Positions 25,294-58,772 of a stretch of DNA of 64,000 bases are shown piece by piece. Under the pieces are notes generated by a model. That model saw only the letters and a program-made list of their open reading frames with translations. It did no database searches and was not told where the DNA came from. Positions within the stretch are counted from its first letter, which is position 1. Each line of letters starts with the position of its first letter. Source of the stretch: Mobula hypostoma (taxonomy: Eukaryota); the NCBI RefSeq assembly GCF_963921235.1, contig NC_086107.1, positions 108,440,001 through 108,504,000 on the forward strand. The letters are read 5' to 3'. Made by a program: the position numbers and the translations under genes.

Positions 25294-27021
25294 CTGGACG
25301 ATAGTGATTGAGGGAACAAGCTAATGCTACAGAAGTAATTGCTGAGGCTCTCTCTCTGTCTCTGTGAACCTCGTTATTTAGAGAGAGATTAATGGAGCTG
25401 GAAATATCGCAGCCAAATTACAAATCACTTCTCTGCAAGGCTACCACCACTAGCCCCAGACTCCAACTGTTCCTCTAGGCTTCAATGTACATTCCTGCTT
25501 AATGTTTCATTTTAGTGAAAGTTGTTAATTTGCAATATGCAGATCTCTGTTACAATTGGCTGGTGGATGAAGGAACTAATTAGGGCTGGGTGACTTTGCA
25601 CGGTCAGGAGCCTTCCCTCGGCAGCTCGTTCAGGCAAACTTTCAGCAAAGTATCGTGTGATTGTTTGCTCAGCACATGAAATGGAGTTCACCTCTTCCCA
25701 TCTTTCAAGAGCAGCTGCAAATCTTACATTACAGCAATGAATGTGCTTTGAAAACTGCTTCAGTGGCACTTGTGGGAACATCTCGAGTTTTGTTGAGTGC
25801 ACTAGCGAAGGATAATTCTTTCCTGAACAGCACTTAAGCCTTTGTTACATTGGAATGTGGAACCTTTTGTTGAGATACCAGTGTATCAGCAGCAATATTA
25901 CTGCAGGGCACCTGGAAACTGGCTCGATTGTAAGCTAACCACTTAATCGAAGAAAGGAGGTCCAAAGGTATCCACGTGGAGAGTCCTCAAAATCACTTCA
26001 CACATTTGTGGGCTACCTCTGTGTGGATCTCATTTTTACTGATAGGCCAGTATCAGGTTTAGTATCGCCTACATATTTCATGAAATTTGCTGTTTCGTGC
26101 CAGCAGTACAGCACAAAACAAGCAAATTGCTGTAAATTATAAAAAGTGAATGGAAGAACAGTGAAATAGTGTTTACGGCTTTGTTGGCCGTTCAGAAAAC
26201 TAACGGCAGATGAGAAGAAGCTGGTCCTAGGATGATGAGTTTGGCTCCTGCACCTCCTCCCTGACGGTAGCAATGAGAAATTACGATCAGAATTTACTGG
26301 AAGTTGCTGCCAGTGAACAATGTGACCGAGGGTGACGTCCTTCAGTCGGTTCACGAAACTACTTCTTTTATTTCTTCTACGCTTTCTTTTTTATTCAAAT
26401 GTGGTTCTGCTATGGTTCGAGTCTGTAGTCTACATTTCGATGGTGTGTTTTGGGGCCGACTGAGCAACCAGACGCTTTGCTGTCTCTCTGATGGAGTTCC
26501 GTGAGGTTTCGAGCAAAGCCTGGAGGTTTCTTTGGAGGGCAAGAAGCCTGGAGATGGGGCGCGAGCCCATTTCTCACCCATTAAAGTGCTGAGGATGATT
26601 GAAATCAATGAGGATGAGAGCGCAAGGTGAGTGGGTGTTCAGCACCGACTACCCGTGGGTGACAAGTCTCTCTCTTCCCATTGCTCCCAAAGGAAGGTGC
26701 CTGTGTATGGACTGTCTCGCTCTCTCTCTCAATGCTGCTCGAGTCCTGCGTCTTGGGCAAGGTATAATCAACGCATTTTGTGGGTTGGACTCTTAGTTCA
26801 GATTATGATATGCTTCTGGTTTCTGGCCACTCCTTTTTTTGTTGCTATTTTATGCAATTTTGATCGGAGTGGTCTGGTTGGTGCGTCCCGCAGATAACAG
26901 AGACACGGCTCTGGGTTGGGCTGAACGGAGCTGGACTGAAAATCCCTGGACTCTTTCAATGAATTTGTGGTTTGGTGTTTTACATTCTGCGTTTTCCACT
27001 CATTCTTTTGCCGTTTAAGCA

Positions 27022-27186
27022 ACACACATCAAAGTTGCTGGTGAACGCAGCAGGCTAGGCAGCATCTCTAGGAAGAGGTACAGTCGATGTTTCGGGCCGA
27101 GACCCTTCGTCAGGACTAACTGAAGGAAGCAACTTTGATGTGTGTTGCTTGAATTTCCAGCATCTTCAGAATTCCTTGTGTTTGTG
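27022..27186 (+). mobile_element. Short Penelope-like insertion with inverted arm, hammerhead motif (minus, 27082-27117) and 17-bp TSD
   Basis: TSD cttttgccgtttaagca at 27005-27021 and 27187-27203. Confidence 0.85.
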
Positions 27187-27572
27187 CTTTTGCCGTTTAA
27201 GCAGTTTGGTTTTTTTGTGTTGGGGTTCAATGTTTTTCTTTGAACAGGTTCCATGATTTTCTTTGTTTCGTGACTGTCAGTGGGGAAGACGAATCTCAGG
27301 TTGTATACAGCATACATACCTTGATAACGGATGTACTTTAAGTCTTTGAGAAAAGGGCATGGCTCAGATCGGGATGGTCCTTAATGATGGACGCTGCTTT
27401 CTTGAGGCACCGCCATTTGAAGATGCCCTCGATTGAAGGTAGGCTTCTGCCTGTGGTGAGCTGGCTGAGCCTGGACCTCCCTGTGGCCTCTTGTGATCCT
27501 GCGCATTGGAGTCATCATCCCAGACTGAAATATAAATGGTCTGAGCCATGAACACTGAAGGTGGAGATGCTG

Positions 27573-27905
27573 GGCCGGCTGGTGGTGTAACGACATCGGC
27601 GCCGGACCCGGGAGCGGAGGTTCCTGGGTTCGAAACCAGTCGAGTCTGTTCCCGAGTACGCTTTCCATCCGTGCCGGGTTGAGTGTCGAGATCTCAACTC
27701 GACCTCGTAAAAATAAAGGGGAAATACTGCGAAAATGTCTGTGTGAGGAGTAGCGAGCCACACAGTCTCTCGCTCTCGCTCCGCGCCTTGTGAAAGCCAT
27801 GAAAAAGACATCATCACGGACGCATGCACAGACACGCAGAAACACACGAACAGACGCGCACGCACAGACTCGCACGCACGCAGGCACACGCCAAAATAAA
27901 AAAGA
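27573..27905 (+). mobile_element. Young CpG-rich tRNA-derived SINE with TSD
   Basis: A-box-like TGGTGTAACGA, B box GGTTCGAAACC and an A-rich tail. TSD tggagatgctg at 27562-27572 and 27906-27916. Confidence 0.85.
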
Positions 27906-29190
27906 TGGAGATGCTGTCCTCAGGAGTAGTGAGAACCCCCAAGAAGTGCAAGGAGGTCCTATGTAAGTGGTGGAAGGAATGGGTGACCCACTTGCTCACC
28001 CCTTCAGGCAGTACCTCCTCCAGTTCCCACATCAGCCACCTCAGAAGCCACAGAACCAAAGTGGGAAGAAGTTGTCCTCGTTCCCCTGGAGCTGCCTCAG
28101 AAGAAGGGCTGTATTCCAAAGATGTCCTTCCAGCCTCAAGAACATCTAAAGAGAATCTGGCATCTGTTTCGGGAGACAGACAGAGTGGGAGCAGCAGTAT
28201 AGAAGTGCTTCTGTTCTGTGGTTTTTGGTGGGCATACGAATGAAGGCGCTTGATGTTCAGATCACAGACTGGCTCCTCCAGGGAGCCAATGCGAGCACGG
28301 CGACAGGAAGGCAGGCACATTCCTTTCAAGGTCATCTCCACCTGCGAATGCATTTGATTTCCATTTCCCATCCCCTGACTGCAGAATCAGCTCTCGCTAG
28401 CTGGGCGAGACCTCAGCTGCAGTCTCGGAGTGAATCTCATGCTGTGGGGAAAGAGCCACAGTATTGGCTCTTTCTCCTTCTGCACACGAAGGGGCAGAGT
28501 TGGCCGCAGGAAGCCCTTTGAACAATCACTCAAGAAGCCACGTAAGGGGAAACGATGCTATGTTTTTAAATTTAAAGTTTACACTACTGAATATACCAAC
28601 CACGAATGTAAAGGGTTTTGTTACAGTCTTTTCTTTGTGTATATATCTTTATTATGAATGGTCTATTTTTCAAATAAAAAGGAGTAAATCTTATACTTGC
28701 ATCCCACACAGCTCGCCCACCCACCAGGATGTTTGACTGCTGGGTAATCCAAGGCATATGAATAGGGACAAATTCTGTCTGTGAAGGCAATGGCACTCCT
28801 CAGCCATTCCACAGCAGACTGCAGTTGCCCCCACCCCCTTCTGTTGATAGAGTATGTGTGATGTCTCTGGGTCTGTACTCCAAGGAGTTCAGAGGGAAGA
28901 GGGATGCAGTGTTGGGAAGGGAATCTCACTGAAATATATGAGACACTGAAAGCCCTCGATAGGTCGCAGGGAGGATGTTTCCATTAGCAGGAGAGTCTAG
29001 CATCTGAGGACCCAGCATCAAGATAAAGGGATGTCCCTTTAAAGTTGGAATAAGCGATATTTTTTCAGCCAAGGGAAGGTGAATCAATGGAATTGTTTGC
29101 CATTGAGGGCTATGGAAGCCAAATCATTGTGTGTTTTTAAGGCAGCAACTGATAAGGTCTTGATTTGTAAGGAAGGGGGTTAAAGGTTAT

Positions 29191-29452
29191 TGTTGTGTGT
29201 TTAATATTTCAATAACATTTGAGTTAACTTGAGTGTGTATATGTGTGTGTATCTACAACACATAGATTTATAGATTGTTTAAGCATTCTTGTTCACTTAA
29301 ATAATTCACTACAGGTTATATGTATAAATACATGAATTTGAAACATCACCACACTACCTACTCAAAGTAAAAACAAAGTTAGAACTAGATTTCCCAGGCT
29401 CCCGTGTCTTCCTTTCAATTATTTTAATGTTTTGAAGTTACAAAACATAACA
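29191..29452. mobile_element. Solo LTR inserted in a CR1 fragment (28920-29560)
   Basis: TGTT...AACA termini and an imperfect 5-bp TSD (gttat/tttac). Homologous to 60934-61178. Confidence 0.75.
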
Positions 29453-29995
29453 TTTACAGGGAGAAGGCAGGACAATGGAGTTAAAAAAATGAGCTATGAT
29501 TAATAGCAGAGAAGACTTGATGTGCACAACAGCTTAAATCTGCTTCTATACCTAATGGTTTTATTAACTGCACCCAGGAGCCTCGAGCTCTAAGGTGCCT
29601 CATCCAATGCACTACAGTTAATAAGCACAGTATTCCCATTGCACACTAAACTTTGTTTTATCATTCTACTTGGAAATGAAGTTTCTTATTTTCTAGTCAT
29701 CCTGCCATCCTACACAATTGATCCCCAAGTTAAGGTCCTGGCTGTAGGTTGTAACCCTCCAGAAAGTTGCTTCATGAAGGTCGGACTATTTAATTATGGT
29801 GAGATCACAGTCCAAGCCAATCTGCAGGAGGAATTTGGGATGCTGAATTCTAGGTTGCCATTGAAGTACTGCTTCCTCCACACATTGGCAATCTCCCCAT
29901 ACCCCAGCAGCTCTGCCTGTCGGAGATGAGCAAACATTGTGTGTGTGAGGGGGAATTCACTGTCGCTCAATGCGTCAGCTTTACCTCTGAGCAAA

Positions 29996-31830: not shown

Positions 31831-31876
31831 TTCTTTGATGCGGAGCTCGGTGACTCAACCTTGACTTCTCCCAGCT

Positions 31877-32490: not shown

Positions 32491-32624
32491 CTAACCTTGA
32501 ATTCATTACTTCTCAACAACCTACCCATAAATCCTTTCAAGCCCTATCGCACAGGATGACCAAAAAGAAAACACAATATTATGCACACACCATAAACACA
32601 GAGCAACAAACATAAAAAAATCGC

Positions 32625-33236
32625 CTGCTGCCGGGGGCAGGGTCGAAACGCTCCGCAGAGATGGTGCTCGGTGTCGAATAGGTGGTCGGAGTTTTGAGGA
32701 TGCTTCCGGGATGCTGCATCGGCAAGTTGGCGGCACTGGAGGTTTACTGTCTGCATGAGATGATGGGACTTTTTACCATGCCCATGGTCTGTTCTTCTAT
32801 CAAATTATGGTATTGCTTTGCACTGTTGTAACTGTATGTTATAATTATGCAAACACGAGGAATTCTGCAGGTGCTGGAATTTCAAGCAACACACAACAAA
32901 GTTGCTGGTGAACACAGCAGGCCAGGCAGCATCTCTAGGAAGAGGTACAGTCGACGTTTCGGGCCGAGACCCTTCTTTCAGTTAGTCCTGACGAAGGGTC
33001 TCGGCCTGAAATGTCAATAGTACCTCTTCCTAGAGATGCTGCCTGGCCTGCTGCGTTCACCAGCAACTTTGATGTGTGTTGCACGTTATAATTATGTGGT
33101 TTTTGTTAGTTTTTAAGTCGGTTTGTCATGTGTTTTGGTGATATCATTCTGGAAAAACATTTTTATCATTTCTTAATGCATGCATTACTAAATGACAATA
33201 AAAGGGGACTACATGTCCTCATAATCATAATCATAA
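32625..33236 (+). mobile_element. AAGATGGC-family retroposon, truncated, split by a Penelope-like insertion
   Basis: Shares ccatggtctgttctt...caaattatggtattgc...aatgacaataaa with the other copies, ending in an (ataatc)n tail. Confidence 0.75.
32850..33084 (-). mobile_element. Short fold-back Penelope-like insertion with hammerhead motif and 12-bp TSD
   Basis: TSD gttataattatg at 32838-32849 and 33085-33096, with inverted arms of about 90 bp. Confidence 0.85.
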
Positions 33237-33239
33237 TAA

Positions 33240-33812
33240 ATACTGGAGGAACTCAGCAGGTCAGGAAGCATCTATGGAGAGGAACAAACAGTCAGTGTTT
33301 CAGGCCAGGACCCTTCAGCAGGACTGGAAAGGAAAGGCGAACACACCAGAATGAGAAGGTGGGATCGAGGGAAGGAGTACAAGCTGGCAGGTGATAGATG
33401 AAGACAAGTGGGGGCGTGACAGCTTGGTGGGGAAGGGGAATGAAATGGGAAGCTGGGAGCTGTTAAGTGGAAAAGGAAAAGGGCTGAAGAAGAAGGAATC
33501 TGATGAATCTGAGAGGAGGGGGTAGAAAGGGAAGGAGGAGTGGCACCAGGGGGAGCTGATGGGCAGGTGAGGAGAAGGGATAAGAGGGGAGCCAGAATGG
33601 GGAATGGAAATAGAGAGATGCAGGAAGGGGTGAAGTGATCAGAACTTAGACAAATCAATATTCATGTTGGCAGGTTGGAGACTACTCAGATGGCAGATGA
33701 GGTGTTGCGCCTCCCACCTGAGGGTGCCCTCATCCCGCAGTAGAAGAGGCCATAGACCAACATGTCTGAATGGGAATGGGAAGTAGAACTAAAGTAGTTG
33801 GCCACAGGGAAA
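33240..33812 (-). mobile_element. Penelope-like element 3' part (older subfamily)
   Basis: DFPVANYFSSTSHSHSDMLVYGLFYC (ORF 33686-33877) and a minus-strand AGTCCTGCTGAAGGGTCCTGGCCTGAAAC. Confidence 0.8.
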
Positions 33813-36654
33813 TCACACCTGTCACAGCCAGAGCGTAGGTGAGTACAAGAGGAGCCCATTCTTCCCACTGTGTTCATGCAGAACTACGTTGGACCTTTCC
33901 TCTCCATTGATAGCCTTGTTCGGTTCGGCTCTCCAGGTCCTCAGGCAGTGGGGTGAGGGTCTCTTCCTTTACCTAATCCTCATGCAGTGCGTTCCAGACC
34001 CCCACCACTGAGTGAAACAATTTTACATCAACTCACGCTCCTCTCCTTAAGCAATTGCCCGGCCCCCTTCGATTCCAAGCTCCAGCCCCCGTCGACTCAT
34101 CTGTTCAGGGCTTTGTTAGCCCTGAACAATGGGGTGCTTGTGTTCTAGGTAAAATTGGAACAGACTGATCTACTTTCTGAGCAGTGGCTGCGTTTGAGTT
34201 CAAGTTCAGTTTCCCATGGCAGTGGACACCACTTCTCCTGTAACTAGCCCCCACTGCACATCTCTGAGCTGCTGTCAATAACACAGCTAGAAGCAGGGTC
34301 AGAGGGCATGCACGTCGCATGATCCTAACCCCTGCGGAAAAATATCTTTAGCAGCAACTGTAGTGTGAGCACAGAATGTATCTTTATAGATCTGCTCCTT
34401 TGTTGTCAGCTAATTCTTTTGCTGTTCCTTCAATCACCACCTGCCTGGCTTTTAAATAGTCCTTGGCTCGAGGGAAGTGCACAGAGATGTCCAACGATGA
34501 TATTAGCAGTAGCTTTTGATTGCTGGCCGCAGCATAGAATTACCCTTACTTTTGAATCAAAACTTTGCCTCTCTCTCCCTAAATGTGCAGCCTCTAGTAA
34601 CTTCCACCCTGGAAAAAAGATTCCGTCTGTTTGATCCATGCCTCTTCTAATTTTATAATCTTCTGACTGGTCTCCCCTCAGCCTCAGATGCTGCCCCAAG
34701 GGCCAAGGGTGGTTTTACATTGTCGGGCAAGGCATTACTGAAGGGTGTGCTGTACTGTCATAGGGAAAGTGCACAAGATGATTGAGTGAATGGTCAGAGA
34801 CGTTTTTCCAGGGCAGAAATGGTACAGCACTAAAAGGGGGTAACAAGTCTTTGGGTATATATAAAGAGGAGGTTGACAGGTTCTTGATTAGTTAGGGTGT
34901 CAAAGTTTACAGGGAGGAGGCAGCAGAATGGGGTTGAGAGCGACAATAAGTCAGCCGAGATGAAATGATGGACCAGACTCAATGGGCTGAATGGCCTAAT
35001 TCTGCTTCTATGTCATATGGTCTTATGGAGCAGTGCGGAGGGTGGTGCAGGTGTCAGAAGATCAGAATGAGTGGTACTGGTGTCAAGGCCTGGCTCCAGA
35101 GGACTGAACCTCCAGTTGAGCGCTAGGGAGCGCTGTACTGCTGGAAAGGCAGTATTGAGGATGCCGCCATGTTGTCAGGGAGGCCTGCTGGCCTGCTGCT
35201 AACATGGTCCCATGTTATCGGGAAGCTTTTGGGGTCACGCCTCCTCTCGGTACTGGAGAGGGTATCACATGGCCAATACTGAGGATGAATCGGTATTCTG
35301 GGCGGAATAGTAGCGTAACATAGAACATAGAACACCACAGTGCATCCCTTCAGCCCATCTTATAACCTACTGTAAGATCAATCTAACCCTTCCCTCCTAA
35401 ATAGTCCTCCATTTTTCTATCATCCACGCACCTATCTAAGAGTTTCTTAAATGCCCCTAATGTATCTGCCTCTACCACCAGTCCTGGCAGGGCTTTCCAC
35501 ACACCCACCACTTTCTGTATTTAAAAAAAACTTACCTCTGACATCTCCCCTATACTTTCCTCCAATCACCTTAAAATTATGTCCCATCATTCTATCCATT
35601 TTCACCCTGGCTGTTCACTCAATCTATGCCTCTTATCATCCTGAGTGCTGTAACACTATAGCAGTGCCACTGACTGGGGTTCAATTCCACCACTGTCTGT
35701 GTGAAATTTGTACATCCTCCCCGTGACCACATGAGTTTCCTGCGGGAGCTCCAGTGTCCACCCACGTTCCGAAATCAATTGGTCACATGAGTGCTCCTTG
35801 GGCCCATAGTTCAATAGTTCAGCTTAGTATCAGAGAGTGTATACAGTATACAACCTGAAATTCTTACTCTTCACAGACATCCTCGAAACAGAAGAAAAAA
35901 AATGCAAAGAATGAATGACAGAAAAAACATAAAAATCCCAAATCCCCTGCTTCCCCCCTCCCATAAACAAGCGGGATCAACCCTCCCCCCCCTACATATT
36001 CTAACACAAAGCATCAGCATTCCCACCACCCGGCATGCAAGCAAAAGCAAAGCCCCCCAAAGAGAGACCATGGTCTACAGTCCATCAAAAACTAACTGTT
36101 CACTCCAACATTTCGACATCCCACAGGCTCGATCTCTCTCTCACTAACAAGGGAAAGACAGATTTCATATCTTGCTAACAAAAGAGAGACAGATATCATT
36201 CCTTCCACAGCGACAGGGGCCTTGTTACCATGTTGTATCTCTAAGTAATAAAGAATGTACAACAGAACTGGCCTTTCAGCCCATCGTAACTGTGCTGAAC
36301 ACGATGCAAAAATCAAACTGAATTTCTTCCACCTTCATATCCCTCTTTTCCCTGCATATTCATGTGTCTATCCAAAAGCCTCTTAAATGACACTATTGAT
36401 CCTGCCAGGTACCCCCTTCTAGGCACCCATCACCTTCACTGTAATAAAAATAGTTTGCCCTGCAATCCTCCCTTACACCCTGCCCCTCTCTCCTTAAATG
36501 TGTATCCTTCGGTAGCTGACATTTCTGCATTGGAAGAAAGATTGTGACTATCTGCTCCTATCTATGCCTCTCCTTATAAGCTGCTAACAGCTCACCTCTC
36601 AGCCTCAGAAGCTGCAGAGAAAATGACCCTCAGGGCTAGTACAGAGGGTGGTCT

Positions 36655-37539: not shown

Positions 37540-38240
37540 CAGTGCTGTGCAAAAGTCTTAGGCATATATCTGTAGCTAGGGTGACTCAGACTTTTGCACC
37601 GTGCTGTAGTAATTTTATATATTGCACTGTACTGCTGCCTCAAAACAAAAGCAAATTTCATGACATGTGTGAGTGATGATGGTTCTCGGAGAGGCTGTAT
37701 CGGAGGGGCTGGTCGGAGGCTCGAAGTTTTCGGACGGAGTCAGAGTCGGCTGAGGTCGGTGCTTCCAATTCATCAGCAAGTTGTGGGCGCTTGGAGACAA
37801 GGAGAGTTTCTCCCTTCTGCCGCCTGCGTGAGATGATGGGGCTATCGGGACTTTGAGATTTTTTTTTACCGTGCCCATGGTCTGCTCTTTATCAAATCAT
37901 GGTATTGCTTTGCACTGTTGTAACTAGTTATAATTATGTGGTTTTGTCAGTTTTAGTCTTGGTTTGTCCTGTTTTTCTTGTGATATCTTTCTGGAGGAAC
38001 ATTGTATCATTTTTAATGCATGCATTTCTAAATGACAATAAACGAGGACTGAGTGTCCTCATAATCTAACGATAAACCTGATTCTGATATGGGCCTCTAT
38101 TGTGGACTGAGAGTGGGAAGGGGGCAGGGAGAGTGGGAAGGGGGCAGGGAGAGGGGAATCATGGCTGACAAAAGGGGAAGGGAAAGGGAAGGGAGTGAGA
38201 AGCACCAAAGAGACCTGTAATAATCAATAAACCAATTGTC
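37540..38240. mobile_element. Second copy of the composite Tc1-type MITE, split by an AAGATGGC-family copy (37681-38070)
   Basis: Hairpin end cagtgctgtgcaaaagtcttaggca...gactcagacttttgcaccgtgctg. The body is colinear with 20484-20710. Confidence 0.75.
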
Positions 38241-45449: not shown

Positions 45450-48440
45450 GATAGTCATAAAAACGTACAGCTCAGAAGCAGGCCCTTCAGACCATCTAGT
45501 CCATGCTGAACCTACTCCCATCAACCTGCCACCGGACCAAAGACCTCCATACCCCTGCCATCCATGTACCTATCCAGAATCTTACACATTGAAATTGAAC
45601 CACTTGGGCTGGCAGCTCATTTCACACTCCCACGGCCCTCTGAGTGAAGAAGTTTCCCCTCATGTTCCACTTAAACTTTTCACCTTTCACCCATGATCGC
45701 TGGTTGTAGTCCCACCCAACCTCAGTGGAAAGAACCTGCTTACATTTACCCTATCTATACCCCTCATAATTTTGTATACCTCTATCAAATCTCCTCTCAA
45801 TCTTTTACATTCCAAGGAATGAAGTCTTATCTATTCAATCTTCCCATGTAACTCAGGTCCTCCAGACCTGGCAACATCCTTCTAAATTTTCTCTGTACTC
45901 TTTCTACCTTATTGACATCTTCCCTGTAGGTAGGAAACCAAAACTGCACACGATACTACAAATTGGGCCTCACCAATGTATTATACAACTACTACTACTA
46001 TGTCGACTCAGGCCTAGGGGGCCGGCATCGGGCACTAAGGCAAGGCATAAGGCATTATTCAACTTCTACATAACATCCTATCTTCTACACATAAGTTTAA
46101 TTTGTGAAGGCCAATGTGCAATGAGCTTTCTTTACGACCCTCTCTATTTGAGATGCCACTTTCAGCAAATTATGTACCTGTATTCCCAGGTCCCTTTATT
46201 CTTCTCAGTGCCCTATCATTGGCTGTATAAGACCTACCCTGGTTGGTCCTCTCAAAGTGCAACACTTCACATTTGTCTGCATTAAATTCTATCTGCCATT
46301 TTTCCAGTTGGTCCAGTTCCCACTGCAAGCCATGATAGGCTTCCTCGCTGCCCACTACACCCCCAGTCTTGCTGTCATCCACAAATTTGCTGAACCTGTT
46401 AACATTATTATCTAGATTGTTGATATATATGACAAACAATGGACCCAACACCGATCCCTATGGCACTCCACTAGTCACAGGCCTCCAGTCAGAAAGGCAG
46501 CCATCTACTACCATTTAAAAATGCAAACACGAGGAAATCTGCAGATGCTGGAATTTCAAGCAACACACATAAAAGTTGCTGGTGAAACTCTTGGGTCTCG
46601 GCCCGAAACGTCGACTGTACCTCTTCCTAGAGATGCTGTCTGGCCTGCTGCATTCACCAGCAACTTTTATGTGTGTTGCATCTACTACCATTCCCTGGCT
46701 TCTCCCCCAAAGCCTGTGTATAATCCAATTTACTAGCTCATCTTGAATGCCGAACGACTGAACCCTCTTGACCAACCTTTCATGCGGGAACTTGTCAAAT
46801 GCCTTACCAAAGTCCATGTAAACAACATCCACTGCCTTGCCTTCATCAACTTTCCTGGTAATTTTCTCAAAAAACCATAAGATTGGTTAGACATGACGTA
46901 CCATGCACAAAGCCATGCTGACTATCCTTAATCAGTCCATATCTATCCAAATACTCATATATCTGGCCCTTAGAATACCTTTCAGTAACTTTCAAAGTTC
47001 AAAGATTCAACTGTACTTATTATCAAAGAATATACAAATTATACAACTTGAGAGTTTTTTGCTTACAGGCAGTTGCGAAGCTAGGACCGAAAGAACACAA
47101 TTAAAAAAATAAGACCAACCACCCCTCACCCCAGTGCTCACAGAGAAAGAGAAGAAAAACATAAAACAAATCATATAAACAATATAAATTAGCAACAACA
47201 ACAGTATTCTGAACCAAATTGAGTCCTTAGATCCAAATCCATGCAGCAGGCCGGAGTAGGCCCAAAGCCTCAGTATTCAGTTCATCATATTAGCAGGCAA
47301 ATCACTGCAAAGTTTGCAGACACAAAGCACAGTAGCTGGGGGAAGTTTCGCAGCCTTGGTGTTGTGGATAGAGAAGTCCCCAGACTATCTGGGCTGGTGT
47401 TTAAATTGTCGGAACTTTGCACTAGGACCAAGACCCTGCCACCAGCGAATTACTCTGGGCCCAAACTTCACTCCCAAGGAAGCCATATTGATCTCTCTAT
47501 ATCAGCACAGCACCCAGAGCGAACCAACCTCATCCGATTCTCAACCTTTCCAGTCTATATGGCCCAGCATTTAGATTGTCCAAACAGTGGGTTGTAGCTT
47601 GCATTAGGACTTGGGCTTCATCATGGCGAATCGCTCCAGGCCTGAACATGCCATCCATTGATTTGCTTCGGACCTGGGTTTTACTGTTGAAGAAGCTGTT
47701 CTCAACCTTTCCAATGTGGCCCAGTGTTTGGAGCTATCTATCCTCATACCGGTGTTAGTTGGATGGGCATCAGAACTCCTCTGTCCCGTCTTCTCCCCTC
47801 CAAACCATTCACTCCAACCGGCACAGCTCCAACTCCAAGTACGTCGATTTTGCAGGGAACATCCTGTGAACTGCTTTCCCTTCGCTCTCTTCTTCATTGC
47901 TTGCGGTGATTGTTTACCACAATTTACTTCAAAAAAAAGTGTTATCAATTATGGTTTTAATTGAATTTCTTTGCTTTTAAACTACCAGTAAGCTGTCACA
48001 CATCTTCAGTAGTGCTATGTTAAACTGATGCCAGGCTCATCGGCCTATAACTTCCTGGTTTATTTTTAGAGTCTTTCGTAAACAGCAGAGCTACATTGGC
48101 TATCCTCCAATCCTTCAGTACCTCACTTGTCACTATGGATGATCTAAATACCTCTGCAAGGGCACCGGCAATTCCTGCACTTGCCTCCTGCAGGGCCTGA
48201 GGTTTCAGGCCCTGGGGATTTATCCACCCAAATTTGCCTCAAGACTGCAAACACATCCTGCCCCGTAATCTGTATAGAGTCAATGAAGTTGATGCTGCTT
48301 TGCCTTATTTCTATAGACTGTCCATCTCCTGAGTAAATATAGATGCAAAAAAATGCACTTAAGATCTCCCCCATCACTCTTAACTCCACGCACGGATTAC
48401 CATTCTCATTTTCCAGAGAACCAATTTTGTCCCTTGGGAA
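45450..48440 (-). mobile_element. Long degenerate CR1 LINE with nested insertions
   Basis: DKSPGP (about 48215), DVVYMDFGKAFDK (about 46830) and LGPLFVIYINNL/KFVDDSK (about 46400). Interrupted at about 45990-46060, 46516-46678 and 46990-48020. Confidence 0.85.
46516..46678 (-). mobile_element. Short fold-back Penelope-like insertion with 14-bp TSD
   Basis: TSD catctactaccatt at 46502-46515 and 46679-46692. Contains gggtctcggcccgaaacgtcgact. Confidence 0.85.
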
Positions 48441-49278: not shown

Positions 49279-49939
49279 CCTCACAAAATGCTGGGGGAGC
49301 TCAGCAGGCCAGGGCACATCTATAGAAAAGAGTAAACCGTAGATGTTTCAGGCCAAAGGAAAGTATAATTAAAATGGGAGGATCCTCATTCCCATTCTGA
49401 GATGTCAGTCCATGGCCTCCACTACTGCCACAATGCAGCCACACTCAGGTTGGAGAAGCAACATCTTATATTCCATCTGGATAGCCTCCAACCTGATGGC
49501 ATGAGTATTGATTTCTCGAACTGTTGGTATTCCGCCCCACCCCCATATAATTCACCATTCCTGTTTCTCTCTCTCATCCTATCTCCTTACCTTCCCATCA
49601 CCTCTTTCTAGTGCTTCTCCTCCTTCTCTTTCTTCCACGGTCTTCTGTACCCTCCTATCAGATTTCTCCTTCTCCAGCTCTTTATCTCTTTCATTAATGA
49701 ACCTCCCAGCTCTTTACTTCACCCCTCCCCTCTTCGGATTTCACCTATCACCTGGTGCCTTGTACTCCTTCCTCCCCTCTCCCCACCTTCTTGTTCTGAC
49801 TTCAGCTCTTCTTTTCTAGTCCTGATGAAGGGTCTCGTCAATAGTTTCCTCTTTTCCATAGATACAGCCTGGCCTGCTGAGCTCCTTCAGCATTTTGTGT
49901 GTTGATTTGGATTTCCAGCATCTACAGACTTTCTTGTGT
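49279..49939 (+). mobile_element. Penelope-like element with inverted 5' pLTR arm and 10-bp TSD
   Basis: ORF 49402-49611 (MSVHGLHYC...LRLEKQHLIFHLDSLQPDGMSIDFSN). TSD ctgtcttgac at 49269-49278 and 49940-49949. Confidence 0.85.
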
Positions 49940-50970
49940 CTGTCTTGACTCTGCTTTGTGTCTGCTCAATGGGACAATGCAAAAGGAGTCTTAGTCTGTA
50001 CCGACCCTGTGTTCTCCCTGTCTACGAACAGATTATGCCAAAATTTTTGCCGAGAGTGGAATACTCCATGGCAGACAGTGACACCACTGAGCTCAATGAG
50101 CAGAGATTTCAAGAGAACAGACAACCTTTCATTAGTAAGTCATGTTTCTCTTCTGATGAAAGACAACCTGAAGAAAAACATTCATTTTTTTCAGTTACTG
50201 TACTGACGCCCGTGCCTTCTTTTACATGAGATGCAAAAATCAAAGCCTTGTCTGATCACTGAGGTGGAAATAAAAGATTCCACAGTGAATGAAATATTTT
50301 TTTAAAAATCTGCAGATGTTGGTCATCTGAAATAAAAACAGAAAATTCTGGAGGTCATAAGGCTTCCATGGCAATCTTCATCTCCAACTTGACCTATTAA
50401 CTTTATTTCTCTTTAGACCATAAGACATAGGAGCAGAATTAGTCCATTCAGCCCATCGAGTCTGCTCTGCTATCCCTCTCTACCTCATTCTCCTGCCTCC
50501 TCCTCATAACCTTTGACACCCTTACAAATCAATAGAACTTAGAACATAGAACAGTTCAGTATAGCAACAGGCCCTTTAGCCCACAATGTTGTGCTAAGCC
50601 AATTAGTAATCCAATGGCCAACTAAACCAATCTTCTCTACCGACAGAGTCTCCACTTTAAATAAACGCAATGACTTGGCAACGAATTTGTCTGTAGTGAT
50701 GAATTCTACAGATTTATTATGACTAAATAAATTTCTCATCATCTCTTTTTCTACAGATGCTGCCTGACCTGTTCCAACACTTCCTGTATTACTGTTTCAT
50801 AAACGAACAAGGGTGGGTGACGGGGTGGAGATACAGTATGTCTCTAGTAAAGGAGGTATAAGATGCTCCTTTGCTCTACTAGCTTTGGGCAAGGTGTAGC
50901 ACCTGTTTATTAGCCCATCCCCCACCGATCAGGGTCTCACAAAGTCATGGGAGCAGGTGGTGGATGGTCA

Positions 50971-51600: not shown

Positions 51601-51972
51601 CATATGAGCAGCTGGTGCATATCACAAGTCCTGGTTATGTGACCACTGATGCCAGGCAGACACTCTCCAAAGAGTATTGATAATGACTGGGGTCGCTCTG
51701 TCTTGTAAAGACGCGGCCCAGAAGAAAGCAATGGCAAACCACTTCTGTAGAAAAAAAATGGAAAGACCATGATCGTCCATCTCATATGATAGAGCACTTT
51801 ATTGAAGTTAATCCACCAAACAGTTTTACTAAATGTGAAACCTCTTCATTACTTCAGGAATTGTGGGAGTTACTACCCCACAACCATCAAGCTCCTGAAC
51901 AAAAGGGGATAGCTACACTCACTTGCCCCATCATTGAACTGTTCCTACAACCAATGATCTCACTTTAAGGAC

Positions 51973-52242
51973 CACACATAAAAATTGCTGGTGAACGCAG
52001 CAGGCCAGGCAGCATCTATAGGAAGAGGCTCCTGTCTTCTCCTATCATTTCGGATCTCCCCCTCCCCCTCCCACTTTCAAATCTCTTACTAGCTCTTCTA
52101 TCAGTTAGTCCTGACGAAGGGTCTCGGCCCGAAATGTTGACTGTACCTCTTCCTATAGATGCTGCCTGGCCTGCTGCGTTCACCAGCAACTTTTATGTGT
52201 GTTGCTTGAAGTTCCAGCATCTGCAGATTTCCTCATGTTTGC
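51973..52242 (+). mobile_element. Short Penelope-like insertion with inverted arm, hammerhead motif (52107-52142) and 16-bp TSD
   Basis: TSD atctcactttaaggac at 51957-51972 and 52243-52258. Confidence 0.87.
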
Positions 52243-53003
52243 ATCTCACTTTAAGGACTCTTAATCTTGTTAACTCAAGTTCTCGTTATTTATTGCTATT
52301 TATTTATATTTGCATTTGCACAGTTTGTTGTCTTCTGCACTCTGGTTGATCTTTCATTGATCCTGTTATAGTTACTATTCTATAGATTTGTCCAGTATGC
52401 CTGTAGGGAAATGAATCTCAGGGGTATATGAGGTGACATATATGTACTCTGATAATAAAATTCACTTTGAACGTTGACTTTTAAGTTTACAGAACATGAA
52501 TTGGTTGTTGTCATAGAGTCACAGAACACTATAGCGCAGAAACAGGCTCTTCAACCAATCTAGTCCATGATAACCTGGCCTTTTTCCCAGTCCCACCTAC
52601 CTCACTGATAATTTTCCTCAATGTCCACTATGACCCCAACCTTGGTGTCATCTGCAAGTTTGCTGATCCAGTTTACTACATTATCATCTGTATCATTAAC
52701 ATAGATGATCAACAATGACAGACCTAGCAACTTTGTTAATTTTAAACCATCATTAACCCCTCACGGACTGACACAATTTGGAGGTTAGAGGCATGCAGAG
52801 CAATTCGAGTTGTTGTTCTTATCATTAATGCATAAATAGCGAGATGGAGATTGGAACTGGTTCTGAGCAACACGCTTAAGAACAAAGTTTTGATCTAATT
52901 TTATATTTATACACTCAACTGTCATTTCTAAGTAATTGCAAATTTGCATTTTGTGGCTTTTAACATTAAGAGTTGATCCCCCTTTGGCTCTCCCAGCCCT
53001 TAC

Positions 53004-53137
53004 CCGGACATGACGATGAAGAAATCCAAGCGATTCCACGTGTCACCAAGGTAGCACTTCTTCCCGACGATCCCTAAGGCAACCATCTTGATCACCATCT
53101 CCATGGCGAAGAAAATAAAGATGAAGTCATCAAAAGC
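53004..53137 (-). CDS. CACNA1I: Cav3.3-like coding exon 3, domain I S2-S3 (134 bp)
   Basis: TTGCAG|GCT TTT GAT... translates to [44 protein letters not shown](G). Donor is GG|GTAAGG. The phase-0 start matches the previous exon and the phase-2 end matches the next. Confidence 0.95.
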
Positions 53138-54059
53138 CTGCAAAGCAACACAGTGTTTCATTTGGCATTATCTTCCATTACATTTGTGGTTGTATTTTAC
53201 TGACCTTCTGGAGGAGCTTTTTGTCTTGTAAGGGCAAGGACTGGGCCTCAAGCCGCGGTGTCGTCAGAGGTGGGAGGCTGGTGTCAGGGCCAGTCCACTC
53301 CACCAGGGGGCAGTGTGGTGTGGCGTCCAAGCGACCAGGCTGCAGACAGTGCTGCCCCCCCCCCCCCCCCGGTGTTCGCTCGGTGGAAGACCGTCTCTAT
53401 CATGGTTGACTATGGATTGATGGCACAAGTTTTGGTCTCTTTTATTGCCTGATTGTACTGGCCATCTTGTGTGTGATTGTTGGTATCGTGTTTTGCACCT
53501 TGATCCTGGAGTAAAGTGTTCTCGTTTGGCTGTATTAATGTATGGTTGAATGACAATTCAACTTGGATTGAATTGATTTTTATCAATGCTCTTTTGTCTA
53601 TCCCCTGATGTGTTGAAGTCACCAACTGATTCCCTGAAGTCTGTCCCCTTGTCCCTGAAGTCTGTCCCCTATTGCAGAATATCTGTGCTCCTACTCTAAC
53701 CATTCAGTTATTCACAATTTTCATCACTCCACCAACATCAGAAAAGTTTTCACCTGACTAGATCCTTAAACTCTGCCATTTCCTTTCTGAATCTCCCCAC
53801 ATCATTCAAGATGTTCTTTAAATCATTTATCTTTGACCAAGCTCCTGATCAAACACCTCAAATTCTCATTGCAGAACTCAAAAGTCAAATAAAATCGTTC
53901 TCTTTTAGCCAGTAACATTTTTCTATGTTAAAGATGCTATACAAATGGAGGCAACTGCAGGTCCCCAACAGTTACTCTGACCTCCCTGTTAGGGTGTATT
54001 CTGGAGTCATGGAATATAGCAAATATTAATTTCAACACCAACCAGTCTTCAGATCTGAA

Positions 54060-54432
54060 TAGAAATGTAGAAAAGCTACAACACCATACAAGCCCCTCGG
54101 CTCACAAAGCTGTGCTGAACATGTCTCTACCTTAGAACTACCTAGGCTTACCCATAGCCCTCTATTTTTCTAAGCTCCATGTACCCATCCAGGAGTCTCT
54201 TAAAAGACCCTATTGTTTCCACTTCCACCACCGCCGCCAGCAGCCCATTCCACGCACTCACCACTCTCTGCGTAAAAAACTTACCCCTGACATCTCCTCT
54301 GTACCTACTTCCAAGCACCTTAATACTATGCCCTCTCGTGCTAGCCATTTCAGCCCTGGGAAAAAGCCTCTGACTATCCACACAATCAATGCCTCTCATC
54401 ATCTTATACACCTTTATCAGGTCACCTCTCAT
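54060..54432 (-). mobile_element. CR1 LINE 3' end
   Basis: ORF 54148-54507 (MRGDLIKVYKM...FFTQRVVSAWNGL). Confidence 0.88.
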
Positions 54433-54443
54433 CCCCCATGGAC

Positions 54444-54827
54444 TGTAAAACAAGGGTGTTCTTGGAGCTGCAGACTGGGGTTGGTTGCAAACAAAGAAAC
54501 ACCCCATTTGACCTGAAATGTCTGCACATGCATGACTGTGGCCCAGGGTTAGTGGGGATTAACATTTATTTTGGGTGTCTGGAGTATTGCTGTGAAGAAG
54601 GAGGTGTTAGAAAATTATATGTTACTCAAAGGAAGCATTGTGGAAACATTGTAACTATAGAATTGTCCTGCCCTTACCTTTGATCTTTAGCATATAAAAA
54701 ATGTCATTTAGTATTGGATCAGAGAATCCTCAAGTATCTCCAGTAAAATGCCTGCATGAGTGTTGAATAAAGACTTCTATATAACCAACTTCAGTATCTC
54801 CTGGTGCCTTCATTCACAGTCACAACA
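54444..54827 (+). mobile_element. Possible solo LTR
   Basis: TGTAA...AATAAA...cacagtcacaaCA. The last 13 nt match the LTR end at 61758, but no TSD is evident. Confidence 0.45.
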
Positions 54828-55107
54828 CTCCCAACCTACCCAAAGAATGTAAAACTTAGTGGGCAACAGAGTCTGCTGGAGGAACTCAAAAGGCTGAGCA
54901 GTATCTGTGGAGGATAAAGGAAATGCCGGCATTTTGGCTGAAAACACTGCATCTGATTGAATTGAATTGACTTTATTACATAATCCCTCATATACATGAG
55001 GAGTAAAAATGTTTACGTTTCATCTCCATCTAAATGATGCAACTTAAAGTGAGTATACTCATTCAACACCTGTTTCCGATAAAGAGAAAGAGGTTGAAAG
55101 GTCCTAC

Positions 55108-55219
55108 CTGCAATATCTTACATCTGTCGGTGGAACAGTCCACGTCCTCACAGGGCTGGTACATTCCCAAAGTGACACAGTTCAACAGGATGACTAACAT
55201 GCTGACATGCTCGAACCAC
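55108..55219 (-). CDS. CACNA1I: T-type Ca channel alpha-1 subunit (Cav3.3-like), coding exon 2, domain I S1 (112 bp)
   Basis: Minus strand reads G TGG TTC..., translating to [37 protein letters not shown]. Donor is CAG|GTAGG; acceptor is ...CCTCAC|. MYQPC and CKILQ are Cav3.3-type (Cav3.1 and Cav3.2 have MFRPC). Confidence 0.93.
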
Positions 55220-55240
55220 GTGAGGATCTAGGGTTAAGGC
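55220..55240 (-). promoter_or_regulatory. U12-type branch site and AC 3' splice site of the intron preceding exon 2
   Basis: Minus strand GCCTTAACCCTAGATCCTCAC|GTGG. CCTTAAC (55239-55233) lies about 13 nt from a terminal AC, with no long polypyrimidine tract. Confidence 0.88.
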
Positions 55241-56159
55241 CAAGAACTAGATCGTAGCTCGATCTCCCGCGCAGGAGTGCTTTGTAAAGTTTCAATCATT
55301 CATAAGACCATTAGATAGAGGAGCAGATTTCGGTCATTTAGCCCATGTTTTTTTCTCAACCCAAAATTCAAAGTTCAAAGGAAAGTTATCACCAAAGTAC
55401 CTAAATTTCTCATATTATAAAGACAGCATTTTTCAAATGATGACACCAGTGAGTACTGATTACCAATTATTGCAAGGATTGGATAGAGTGGATGTTGAGA
55501 TGACGTTTCCATTAGTAGGAGAGTCCAGGATCTGAGAGCATTCACAGTAGAACAAAGAAATACAGAAGAATCAATGAAAAACTCCACACAAAGACTGACA
55601 AACAACCCACATGCAGAAGACAAACCGTGAAAATATATTTTTTAAAAAATAAATAAATGAATAAGTAATATTGAGAAAATGAGCTGTAGAATTCTTGACA
55701 GTGAGTTCATAGGTTGTGGAATTAGTTCAGTGTTGACATAAATGAAATTATCTAGGCTGGTTCAGCCATTCTCCCGCATTCTTTCCATATTCTTAACCAC
55801 CTTTACCAATCAAAAATCTGTCAAACTCGACCTTAAAAACTCCCAATGATTTTTCCTCCACAGATCTCTGTGCCTCTGTGGCAACAAATTCTACAGATTC
55901 ACCACCCTCTGGCTGAACTCTAAATGACCCTAGTTGAATGCCCAAATTGGGTAGAACTTCATTGATTCTGTTTTGGCTATTATTCTACAGATTTATTGTG
56001 TATGTCCACAACAAAATTAATCTCAGAGTTGTACATGGTGACATATATGTATTTTGATAATAAATTTGCTTTGAACTTGGAAGAAATTCTTCTTTACCTC
56101 AGTTTTGAAGGGACGTCCCTTTTTTACGGGCCTGTGTCCTCAGATCCTGGACTCTACAA

Positions 56160-56772
56160 GGCGGGAGGAGAAGATGGCAGCGTGCCGCGTGTGCACAGCT
56201 CTCCGGTGAAAAATGATGTTAAGTAGGGGCCATGGACAATTCTGATTTGATGGAGAATGGACGTGAAAGCACAGAGGAACATCTGGAGAAATTTCCGAAA
56301 CGCCCATCCGCTGCTGTCATTACTGTGTGGTCAGGAATCTTTCGGAGGGTAGGCCTCAAAATCCCCGGCCTTGCCTGCTTTTGGCGACCAAGAAGGAGGT
56401 CGAATCGTTCGGACAGAGATGGCGCTCAGTACTCGGTGTCAGAGAGCTGACCAGAGCTCGAAGTTTTCGGATGACTCAGAGTCGGATTGTGGTCGGCATG
56501 GCAGGGGGAGTTTTGCTTCCTTCTCCCATCTGCGTGAGATGTGGGACATTTGAGAAACTTTGAACTTTACTGTGCTCATGGACTTCTTCATCAAGTTATG
56601 GTATTGTTGCACCGTTTGTAACTATATGTTATAATTACGTGGTTTTGTCAGCTTTTTCAGTCTTGGTTTGTCCTGTGTTTTGTGATATCACACCGGAGGA
56701 AATAATATATCATTTCCTAATGCATGCATTACTAAATGACAATAAAAGGGGACTATGTATCTTCATAATCTA
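56160..56772 (+). mobile_element. AAGATGGC-family retroposon, full-length divergent subfamily, inserted in a CR1
   Basis: ggcgggaggagAAGATGGC...caattctgatttgatggaga...aatgacaataaaagggg...cataatct is colinear with 12417-13104. Confidence 0.8.
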
Positions 56773-57040
56773 CTAATGAAAACACCTTCTCCACATTCAC
56801 TCTATCCATGTAATAATTGGTAACCCACATTCAATAGCGTCGTCTTTTAAAACATGTTGTCTTTAAAACTTGAGAAATAAAAGCAGCATACTTTCTCTGT
56901 CCTGCGAGCTGTTCTGACACTTGACAAGATTATAATCAGAATCAGGATTATTATCACTGATAAATGTTATTAATTTTGTCACTTAGAGGCAACAGTACTG
57001 TGCAATACATAAAATATATTATAAGTTACTAAATGAAATG

Positions 57041-57629
57041 TACTCAGTGGCCACTGTATTAGGAAGAGGGGTGGAATCTGGTATGGTTTTCTGCTGCAGT
57101 AGCTCAACCAGTTCAAGGTCCAACATGTTAGACATTCAGAGATGACCTTTTTCACATCACTGTTGTAACATGCGGGTATCTGAGATACTGTCTCCTTGAA
57201 CCAGTCCAGCTATTATTCTCCTCTGACATCTCTCATTAACAAGGTGTTCTCCCCCAAAGGACTATTGTTCGCTGGATGCTTTTTGTTTCTTTTTGCACCG
57301 TCCTCTGTAAACTCTAAGCATGGGTTCCCATTCTTTTTGTGCCATGGACCAACACCATTAAGCAAGGGGTCCATGGATGTCAGGTTGTACGAGAAAATCT
57401 CAGGAGATCAGCAGTTTCTGAGATCTTCAAACCACCCCATCTGGCACCAACAATCATTCCATGTCAAAGTCATTTCTTCACCATTCTGATGTTTGATCTG
57501 AACAACAACTGAACCTCTTGACCATGTCTGTATGCTTTTATGCAATGAGTTGCTGCCTCGTGATTGGCTGATGAGGTATTTGCATTAACGAGGAGTACAG
57601 GTGTACCTAAAAAGTGGCCACTGAGTGTA
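57041..57629 (-). mobile_element. Tc1-derived non-autonomous element with both TIRs
   Basis: TA-ctcagtggccactgtattagg ... cctaaaaagtggccactgagtg-TA. Carries an insert of about 67 bp at 57320-57387. Confidence 0.85.
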
Positions 57630-57810
57630 GGTATAAAAATCAATAAGTAGTGCAAAAAGAGAGCAAAAATGGTGAGGTGGTGTTCATGTGTTGATTGTCC
57701 ATTCAGAAATCTGATGACAGAGGGGAAGAAGCTGTTCCTGAATCATTGAGTGTGTGCCTTCAGGCTTCTGTACCTCCTTCCTGATGGTAACAATGAGAAG
57801 AGGGCAATAG

Positions 57811-58470
57811 GTGAGCAATTCCAAGTTTCTGGGTGTCAATTTCTCTGACAATCTATCTTGGACCCAACATATCAATGTAGTTACAAAGAAGGCACAACAA
57901 TGGCTATATTTCATTAGGAGTTTGAGGAGATTTGGTATGTCACCAAAAACACTCGCTAATTTCTACAGATGTACCGTGGTGAGCATTCTAACCGGCTGCA
58001 GCACCATCTGGTATGGAGGGGGCATTGCACAGGATCGAAATAAGTTGCAGAAAGTTGTAAACTCAGTCAGCTCCATCATAGGAACTAGCTGATATAGTAC
58101 AGAGGACACCTTCAAGGTGCAATGCCTCACAAAGGCAGCGTCCTTAATTGAGGACCCTGTCACCCAGGGCATGCCCTCTTCTCATTGCTACCATCAGGAA
58201 GGAGGTACAGGAGCCTGAAGACACACACTCAATGATTCAGGAACAGCTTCTTCCCCTCTGCCGTCCGATTTCTGAATGGATAGTGAACCCATGGACACTA
58301 CCTCACTATTTTTTAAATTTCTATTTTTGCACTACTTACTTCATTTAACTATTTAATATATATACTCACTATAATTCAGTTTTCTCTATCGTTATGCATT
58401 GAACTATTGCCGCATAGTCAACAAATTTCACAACATATGCCAATGATATTAAATCTGATTCAGATTCTAG
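57811..58470 (+). mobile_element. Rex1-type LINE 3' fragment nested in an opposite-strand Rex1 tail
   Basis: ORF 57811-58092 (KFLGVNFSDNLSW...FYRCTVVSILTGC). Confidence 0.85.
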
Positions 58471-58587
58471 TCTGGGGTTGAGGATCCTTAATAATGATGC
58501 CACCTTCTTGAGGCATTACCTCCTGAAGATGTCCTCTATAGTTTGGAGGCTAGTGCAATCACTGCATTACAAAAAAAAAATGCAAGG

Positions 58588-58772
58588 AACACACTCAAAA
58601 TGCTAGATGATCTCAACTAACCAGACAGCATTTATGGAAAAGAGTACAGTCGGCGTTTCGGGCTGAGACCCTTCATCAGGACTCTCCATAGATGCTGCCT
58701 GGCCTGCTGAGGTCCTTCAGCTTTTTGTGTGTTACTTGGATTTCCAACATCTACAGATTTTCTCTTGTTTGT
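58588..58772 (+). mobile_element. Short Penelope-like insertion with inverted arm and hammerhead motif (minus, 58648-58683)
   Basis: Minus strand AGTC CTGATGA AGGGTCTCAGCCC GAAAC GCC GACT, with the family 3' tail at right. Confidence 0.75.

What the first reader, a model, noticed from the sequence alone, without database searches (positions are those of the whole stretch)
27005..58772. Family of tiny Penelope-like insertions carrying a minimal hammerhead-ribozyme motif
Seen: copies at 27082-27117 (-), 32984-33019 (+), 46593-46616 (+, 3' half only), 52107-52142 (+) and 58648-58683 (-) give the consensus AGTC-CTGACGA-A-GGGT(CTCG)GCCC-GAAAC-GTC-GACT. This has the CUGANGA and GAAA core boxes, stem I AGUC/GACU, a 4-bp stem II and a GUC cleavage triplet. 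Stem III is reduced to a loopless palindrome (ACGU). No single copy matches the whole consensus; most deviations fall at CpGs. Four similar copies are only 160-270 bp, lack any ORF and have 12-17 bp TSDs. Established: Penelope-like elements carry minimal type I hammerheads in their pLTRs, and such motifs are thought to need dimerisation. Inference: a recently active ribozyme-bearing retroelement is seeding this genome densely, either as truncation products of an autonomous PLE or as a retrozyme-like non-autonomous RNA. I cannot tell whether this family has already been described.
Basis: partly seen in the sequence, partly recalled or inferred. Interest (0 to 1): 0.75.

Follow-up and report, generated by a model that had tools for sequence, protein, structure and literature searches.

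The report
Ray Penelope retrotransposon ends carrying hammerheads
These short insertions are the cut-off tail ends of an abundant Penelope-like jumping gene that still has intact full-length copies in this genome (likely a ray); the small self-cutting RNA motif they carry is a known feature of such elements, but the hairpin-shaped insertions always pair one long with one short end, which likely reflects how the element is copied.

Summary
Five minimal type I hammerhead (min-HHR) copies lie at the stated coordinates, and the four young insertions are 163-270 bp with 12-17-bp TSDs.

They are 5'-truncated, head-to-head inverted 3' ends of an autonomous Penelope-like element, Neptune-type by its linker. 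All 20 fetched full-length copies have a 1043-aa RT + GIY-YIG frame between two HHR-bearing pLTRs, with median identity 98.7%. An intact 34-nt motif occurs 52,249 times genome-wide (control 0). An independent retrozyme is not supported: no tandem arrays and no private alleles in short copies.

- 57 of 57 TSD-bounded inverted insertions have one long (about +103) and one short (about +66) end.
- 5' ends avoid the cleavage site but pile up inside the motif.
- The youngest subfamily has a G10.1-U11.1 wobble.

Cleavage and expression are untested. The class is published (PMC4209133, PMC8557442, PMC11167929), and this scan already noted it in other shark or ray genomes. Verdict: a new member of a known kind.

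The parts
27005..27203 (.). Insertion 1 with 17-bp TSDs: minus-strand arm (-43..about +66 relative to the cleavage site, short end) joined head-to-head to a plus-strand arm (+47..+103, long end)
27082..27117 (-). min-HHR copy; core boxes and stems I and II intact, stem III palindrome broken by CpG decay; sense to the host pre-mRNA
32838..33096 (.). Insertion 2 with 12-bp TSDs: minus arm -22..+104 (long) and plus arm -46..+67 (short); nearly perfect fold-back (-188 kcal/mol predicted)
32984..33019 (+). min-HHR copy with stem I 3' strand mutated
46502..46692 (.). Insertion 3 with 14-bp TSDs: minus arm from +41 (long end) and plus arm -19..+67 (short end); only the 3' half of the HHR (46593-46616)
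51957..52258 (.). Insertion 4 with 16-bp TSDs: minus arm from +7 (short end) and plus arm -109..+104 (long end)
52107..52142 (+). min-HHR copy; the only window copy that passes the strict descriptor (GUU triplet, U-G in stem III)
58572..58788 (.). Insertion 5, older related family, 14-bp TSD with 1 mismatch: minus arm from -31 (short end) and plus arm +17..+103 (long end); HHR at 58648-58683 has lost U16.1
21503..22100 (+). Older relative: endonuclease-end remnant (21503-21732) and pLTR with a decayed HHR (to 22100)
33249..33814 (-). Older relative: endonuclease-end remnant (33642-33814) and pLTR with a decayed HHR (33249-33325)
49382..49942 (+). Older relative: endonuclease-end remnant (49382-49522) and pLTR with a decayed HHR and long tail (49817-49942)

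Best explanation
The insertions are 5'-truncated, head-to-head inverted 3' ends of an autonomous Penelope-like retrotransposon whose pLTR carries a minimal type I hammerhead, and they likely arise when the element's own RT-endonuclease cuts the target with a 12-15-nt stagger and primes cDNA from both strands. Shown: continuity with intact 1043-aa RT + Cys-linker + GIY-YIG frames flanked by direct pLTRs; TSD mode 14; two fixed 3' ends about 37 nt apart; one long and one short end in every TSD-bounded inversion; 5' ends from +46 to -3389 with an excess inside the motif. Inferred: each cut strand primes at one of two internal start sites on the RNA; RT often stalls or falls off in the 5' half of the folded hammerhead; the two cDNA ends are joined by microhomology. 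Also inferred: the hammerhead cannot cleave as a monomer and would need a second copy or the element's protein; it is likely inert in these solo copies, and the RNA that is copied is uncleaved or re-ligated.
For: GIY-YIG C-terminus directly upstream of many short-copy hits. Pfam RVT_1 and GIY-YIG in a 770-aa frame, both below Pfam's curated cut-offs (E 1.4e-5 and 7.5e-4). 20 of 20 fetched loci have the 1043-aa frame with a pLTR/HHR on each side. First-look candidates: 179,606 for the endonuclease against 2,680 for the N-terminus. 3' ends are bimodal. Long+short rule: 49 of 49 plus 8 of 8 in a fresh sample. 0 of 30 copies chosen on +1..+72 start at the cleavage site; 1 of 48 unbiased 5' ends lies within -3..+5 and 13 of 48 within -31..-16 (binomial p 1e-5, window partly chosen). 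Short and long arms share alleles: 0 of 26 sites differ at p<0.01, none private. The same motif with covarying stems occurs in 8 of 80 metagenome loci encoding relatives, against 0 in 20 shuffles. In the anole element the protein nicks and extends both strands, starts at two internal sites that define the tail, and the HHR cleaves only with protein and is dispensable for insertion in vitro (PMC11167929).
Against: No cleavage or RNA evidence here. Arm lengths are not correlated in the less biased subset (Spearman 0.21, p 0.33, n 25), so simultaneous synthesis of both arms is not shown. 20 of 69 head-to-head pairs had no TSD and were left out of the long/short count: 10 mixed, 9 long-long, 1 short-short. 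Five of the long-long pairs have an arm that reads on into the ORF and one joins different families; L028, L042 and L206 stay unexplained. PMC3846280 explains such inversions by self-priming on an antisense template instead. The in vitro work is on a Poseidon-clade element, not this clade.
Confidence: 0.9

Rival explanations
1. Some short copies come from short transcripts that start near the hammerhead in solo pLTRs and are mobilised in trans, as a SINE-like or retrozyme-like non-autonomous RNA.
For: 5' ends pile up in and just around the motif (13 of 48 in -31..-16, 0 of 19 at risk in -109..-63). RT that has already crossed a whole unit does not stop there (0 of 32 against 13 of 35, Fisher p 7e-5). 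Non-LTR retrozymes are proposed pLTR derivatives and were found in one chondrichthyan (bioRxiv 10.64898/2026.07.22.740005).
Against: No private alleles. The ends are spread over about 50 nt, not one site. No tandem arrays: 1 of 51 motif hits has a same-strand neighbour within 1 kb, at 13 nt. 30 of 33 full-length copies extend 84 nt or more upstream of the 5' cleavage site and none begins at the motif, so the element RNA does not generally start there.
Confidence: 0.12
2. [quoted passage not shown] This is compatible with the identity given above but changes the role of the motif.
For: Core and palindrome are kept across diverged families and distant relatives. Full-length copies are partial tandems whose upstream unit mostly shares the haplotype of the downstream unit (231 of 256 allele calls against 159 expected if unlinked). 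A circle would leave no 5' end at +1. This model is proposed in PMC4209133.
Against: Some 5'-versus-3' mismatches recur across loci (-149 in 6 loci, -120 in 4), which fits tandem source loci or two templates; L122 and probably L125 in that call are separate insertions. The dominant young subfamily has G10.1-U11.1 instead of the conserved G-C. HHR mutants insert normally in vitro in the anole element.
Confidence: 0.3
3. The inverted arm is made by fold-back self-priming or copying of an antisense or already fold-back RNA, not by priming from both target strands.
For: Proposed for rotifer Penelope elements (PMC3846280). Junctions show short overlaps of 1-8 nt.
Against: Both arms end at fixed sense-RNA sites, always one of each, and either arm may reach further 5' (long arm in 20 of 49). 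Junction positions differ at every locus, so the fold-backs are not copied as units.
Confidence: 0.2

Closest known systems
Minimal hammerheads in pLTRs of metazoan PLEs: Xena, Poseidon and Neptune of fishes, coelacanth, Xenopus (Cervera and De la Pena 2014, PMC4209133; read parts 1-2 of 4)
   Same: Type I topology, intact core boxes, extra nucleotide between A9 and G10.1, palindromic 15.2-16.2, no loop 3, location in both pLTRs, mostly solo truncated copies, opposite-strand pairs close together.
   Different: Far more copies: 52,249 exact intact motifs against about 4,000 and 9,000 in that paper's richest vertebrates (different search methods). The dominant young subfamily has G10.1-U11.1. 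No shark or ray is named in the parts read; supplements not opened.
Neptune-clade EN+ Penelope-like elements (Craig et al. 2021, PMC8557442; passages seen)
   Same: [quoted passage not shown]
   Different: Here the tail asymmetry is strict (57 of 57 TSD-bounded inversions) rather than 'often'. Neptune versus Nematis was not resolved by a tree.
Poseidon element of Anolis carolinensis, PAc (Frangieh et al. 2024, PMC11167929; read parts 1-2 of 4)
   Same: Two 3' ends about 37 nt apart matching two RT start sites; no ends at the HHR cleavage site; HHR next to the ORF start.
   Different: PAc belongs to the Penelope/Poseidon clade, for which PMC8557442 does not list the Cys linker, and its ORF starts inside stem II; here the open frame starts 58 nt after the cleavage site. 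Nothing was assayed here.
Non-LTR retrozymes of animals (bioRxiv 10.64898/2026.07.22.740005; read parts 1 and 3 of 5 and passages)
   Same: Non-coding, pLTR-related, type I HHR.
   Different: Retrozymes are tandem arrays of fixed-length units; these copies are solo or inverted, variable in length, and share alleles with ORF-bearing copies.

Membership tests
EN+ Penelope-like element | Single ORF with RT followed by a GIY-YIG endonuclease | tested here: met
   1043-aa frame in 20 of 20 fetched loci; Pfam RVT_1 and GIY-YIG, below curated cut-offs; 2485 relatives
EN+ Penelope-like element | Direct pLTRs formed by partial tandems | tested here: met
   (33 distinct loci with an abutting upstream pLTR; 9 of the 50 loci examined had none)
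EN+ Penelope-like element | 5' truncation, adjacent inverted copy, 30-40-bp tail, TSD | tested here: met
   TSD 10-17 bp, mode 14 (20 of 49)
EN+ Penelope-like element | RT phylogeny with PLE and telomerase RTs | not tested
   no labelled reference set was available; no tree built
Neptune clade | CX2-5CxxC linker before the GIY-YIG motif (shared with Nematis) | tested here: met
   CKRNKCYTC in the L113 frame; definition from PMC8557442
Neptune clade | Placement in Neptune rather than Nematis by RT tree | not tested
   no named Neptune or Nematis sequences in hand
Minimal type I hammerhead of PLEs | Core boxes CUGANGA, GAAA and NUH, with stems I and II | tested here: met
Minimal type I hammerhead of PLEs | Palindromic 15.2-16.2 without loop 3 | tested here: met
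   11 of 12 descriptor hits in 600 kb; 9 of 9 metagenome hits, where the descriptor required it
Minimal type I hammerhead of PLEs | Conserved G10.1-C11.1 pair | tested here: inconclusive
   G-C in four window copies and 9 of 9 metagenome motifs, but G-U in 20 of 20 full-length 5' motifs and 21 of 30 random copies
Minimal type I hammerhead of PLEs | Stem covariation | tested here: met
   different stem I and II sequences keep pairing in the 9 metagenome motifs (pairing was part of the descriptor, control 0 in 20 shuffles); one compensated stem I variant in this genome
Minimal type I hammerhead of PLEs | Self-cleavage as a dimer or with protein | not testable with these tools
   needs in vitro transcription
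Non-LTR retrozyme | Tandem repeats of HHR-bearing units | tested here: not met
   1 of 51 motif hits has a same-strand neighbour within 1 kb, at 13 nt, in 1.2 Mb; arrays elsewhere in the genome are not excluded
Non-LTR retrozyme | Fixed unit length and own lineage | tested here: not met
Non-LTR retrozyme | Abundant circular RNA | not testable with these tools
   only contig runs of guessed kind were listed

The most novel reading that the evidence does not exclude
Penelope integration is an obligately asymmetric double priming. A protein dimer makes a 14-nt staggered cut and primes one target strand at the +103 site and the other at the +66 site. The hammerhead acts mainly as a protein-bound fold that stalls RT rather than as a cutter, which would explain why the most successful subfamily tolerates a G10.1-U11.1 wobble while more than 50,000 intact motifs sit in the genome, introns included. 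With many near-identical intact 1043-aa copies, this family would be a ready Neptune-type system for testing the open PLE mechanism.
Probability: 0.3. Interest if true: 0.6.

Novelty: new member of a known kind. Interest (0 to 1): 0.33.

Why it matters
The ribozyme-PLE pairing is known, so the family itself adds a catalogue entry, although a very large one: about 2.3% of sampled bases and 52,249 intact motifs. The value lies in the mechanism. How PLEs make inverted pLTRs and tails, and what their hammerhead does, is still open. The strict one-long-one-short rule, the absence of ends at the cleavage site and the stop excess inside the motif are genomic constraints that an in vitro system with an intact copy could test directly.

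Tried and rejected
- Rfam scan of the window: no hammerhead family at E<=1; the mir-3926 hit at 32914-33054 is only the fold-back.
- Folding z-scores of the motif and the tail region: not different from shuffles. The cofold minimum of two motif copies is not the active dimer and is uninformative.
- Two own-genome DNA searches with 66-nt queries returned nothing, probably because common words are skipped; this is no evidence of absence.
- Expression: no RNA holder listed. The four runs laid are contigs of guessed or unrecorded kind; they cover the whole element with a strong 3' bias and have loose ends at the same two 3' sites, but cannot show transcription, RNA ends or cleavage.
- Correlation of arm lengths: strong overall (rho 0.68) but due to locus selection; not significant in the less biased subset.
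- Circle versus tandem template by 5'/3' unit comparison: inconclusive.
- Run-off at a fixed RNA start just before the motif, as the general cause of short copies: not favoured.
- Local enrichment in this window: 4 young insertions in 64 kb against about 2 expected; not remarkable.
- Literature searches for this family: 0 papers, listings only, or irrelevant listings. Repbase and Dfam were not searchable, and the bioRxiv supplements naming the chondrichthyan species were not seen.
Full report
Positions marked + or - count from the predicted cleavage site (+1 is the base after GUC).

Observation. The four young insertions have TSDs of 17, 12, 14 and 16 bp enclosing 165, 235, 163 and 270 bp. The fifth, at 58.6 kb, is an older relative with a 14-bp TSD carrying one mismatch. 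No window copy matches the intact motif. A minimal-hammerhead descriptor gives 2 window hits against none in 100 shuffles, and 11 strict hits in 600 kb of systematic sample against none in 20 shuffles. Rfam does not detect the motif and it is not unusually stable, as expected for a hammerhead without a real stem III. At least three more decayed relatives with endonuclease-end remnants lie in the window.

The parent element. The window lies in a 3.48-Gb genome. Upstream of many genomic copies the sequence continues into a GIY-YIG C-terminus. Walking further gave a 770-aa RT + endonuclease frame (Pfam hits below the curated cut-offs). An N-terminal query then listed many 1043-aa open frames. I fetched 20 of those rows. 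All 20 have the frame, a pLTR with the hammerhead on each side, and pairwise DNA identity of 97.5-99.4%, median 98.7%. The frame holds DKGG, YIDD, a CKRNKCYTC linker and the GIY-YIG motif. The linker marks Neptune or Nematis elements (PMC8557442 passages); no tree was built. The nearest named proteins are from Mobula hypostoma (88-94%), Hypanus sabinus (78-81%), Rhincodon and Chiloscyllium (68-72%), so the host is likely a ray. The endonuclease gave 179,606 first-look candidates and the N-terminus 2,680, a strong 3' bias. An exact 34-nt degenerate pattern of the intact motif occurs 26,105 + 26,144 times, control 0. In 120 systematic 10-kb samples there were 38 young insertions (about 110,000 genome-wide by extrapolation), covering 2.3% of bases.

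Truncation or retrozyme. 5' ends run from +46 to -3389. Sixty short arms and 48 long arms share all subfamily alleles: 0 of 26 variable sites differ at p<0.01 and none is private. There are no tandem arrays in the sample. The short copies are therefore products of the autonomous element. One result leaves room for the rival: 13 of 48 unbiased 5' ends fall in the 5' half of the motif (-31..-16), about six times the neighbouring rate (window partly chosen, and 6 of 27 in the fresh half of the sample). None of 32 read-through copies stops there. Earlier notes of this scan read such a pile-up as run-off at the RNA start. In this genome 30 of 33 full-length copies extend 84 nt or more upstream of the 5' cleavage site and none starts at the motif, so early stalling at the fold fits better. 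Short transcripts from solo pLTRs are not excluded.

End rule. 3' ends cluster near +66 and +103. Of 69 head-to-head pairs, 49 had a TSD of 10 bp or more (mode 14), and all 49 had one long and one short end. A fresh sample added 8 of 8, giving 57 of 57. Many loci were selected on one arm, which does not fix the partner arm. The 20 pairs without a TSD were left out; 9 are long-long, five of them because one arm reads on into the ORF, and three (L028, L042, L206) are unexplained. The literature describes the tail as often or optionally at one end (PMC8557442, PMC3846280 passages). The anole element primes both target strands and starts at two internal RNA sites that define the tail (PMC11167929). 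Joining these gives the inferred model: a staggered cut, one strand primed at each site, and the cDNA ends joined by microhomology. Arm lengths are not demonstrably coupled, and self-priming on an antisense template remains a rival.

The hammerhead. The architecture matches the min-HHR of fish PLEs (PMC4209133), which did not cleave as a monomer and only weakly as a dimer in that work. Loci encoding relatives in metagenomes carry the same core with different, still pairing stems: 9 motifs in 8 of 80 loci, 0 in 20 shuffles. So the motif is conserved as RNA structure. Cleavage leaves no mark on insertions: 0 of 30 copies selected on +1..+72 start at +1, and 1 of 48 unbiased ends is near it. Templates are thus uncleaved or re-ligated; the comparison of 5' and 3' units could not decide between these. 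All 9 metagenome motifs keep G10.1-C11.1, whereas 20 of 20 full-length 5' motifs and 21 of 30 random copies have U11.1, and 55,009 genomic sites carry the U form of the 3' half. Neighbouring CpGs are intact in those copies, so this is a source-level change. That it weakens catalysis is my inference from recalled hammerhead mutagenesis, not tested. No RNA evidence could be obtained.

Context. The copies lie in introns of a T-type calcium channel gene on the minus strand. The exon at about 2019-2126 matches CACNA1I best, and likely further exons lie near 53.0-53.1 and 55.1-55.2 kb (located with recalled motifs). Only the 27-kb and 58.6-kb motifs are sense to the pre-mRNA, and both are damaged.

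Verdict. A real and very abundant, recently expanded Neptune-type Penelope family with the known minimal hammerhead: a new member of a known kind. I found no paper on it, but repeat databases were not searchable, and this scan has already reported the same pattern in other shark or ray genomes (25 findings in at least 17 genomes). Interest 0.33, carried by the strict end rule, the intact source copies and the wobble subfamily.

Noticed in passing
window 2019-2126, about 53003-53137 and about 55108-55222 (minus strand): Exons of a T-type calcium channel alpha-1 gene, best match CACNA1I, with an intron of about 51 kb between two of them that holds four of the five insertions.
   Followed up: partly
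window 14192-16651 (+): Long LINE-like reverse transcriptase reading frames (535 and 283 aa, split by one stop), with many shorter LINE fragments elsewhere in the window.
   Followed up: no
window 5887-5951: 65-bp near-perfect palindrome that scores weakly as mir-9256 on both strands, below the gathering score; probably a small inverted-repeat element.
   Followed up: no
window 12660-13105, 23624-24068, 32753-33226, 37845-38066, 56678-56770: Another dispersed repeat family; insertion 2 sits inside one copy, and the empty target motif is visible in three other copies.
   Followed up: partly
window 27814-28386 (-), 61893-62333 (+), 63514-63921 (+): Open stretches that look like fragments of other mobile elements; the last two resemble LTR-retrotransposon gag/pol pieces (recalled resemblance).
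   Followed up: no
L113:3186-3225: A short duplication just upstream of stem I offers a second register for pairing with the strand after the cleavage site, which could act as an inactive alternative fold.
   Followed up: no
L121, upstream unit about -453..-319: Several A-to-G differences cluster between the 5' and 3' units, possibly an editing scar on a fold-back RNA.
   Followed up: no
P0023, P0049, P0110: Fragments of this element's ORF appear in ray gene models, two of them under host gene names, suggesting mis-annotation or exonisation.
   Followed up: no
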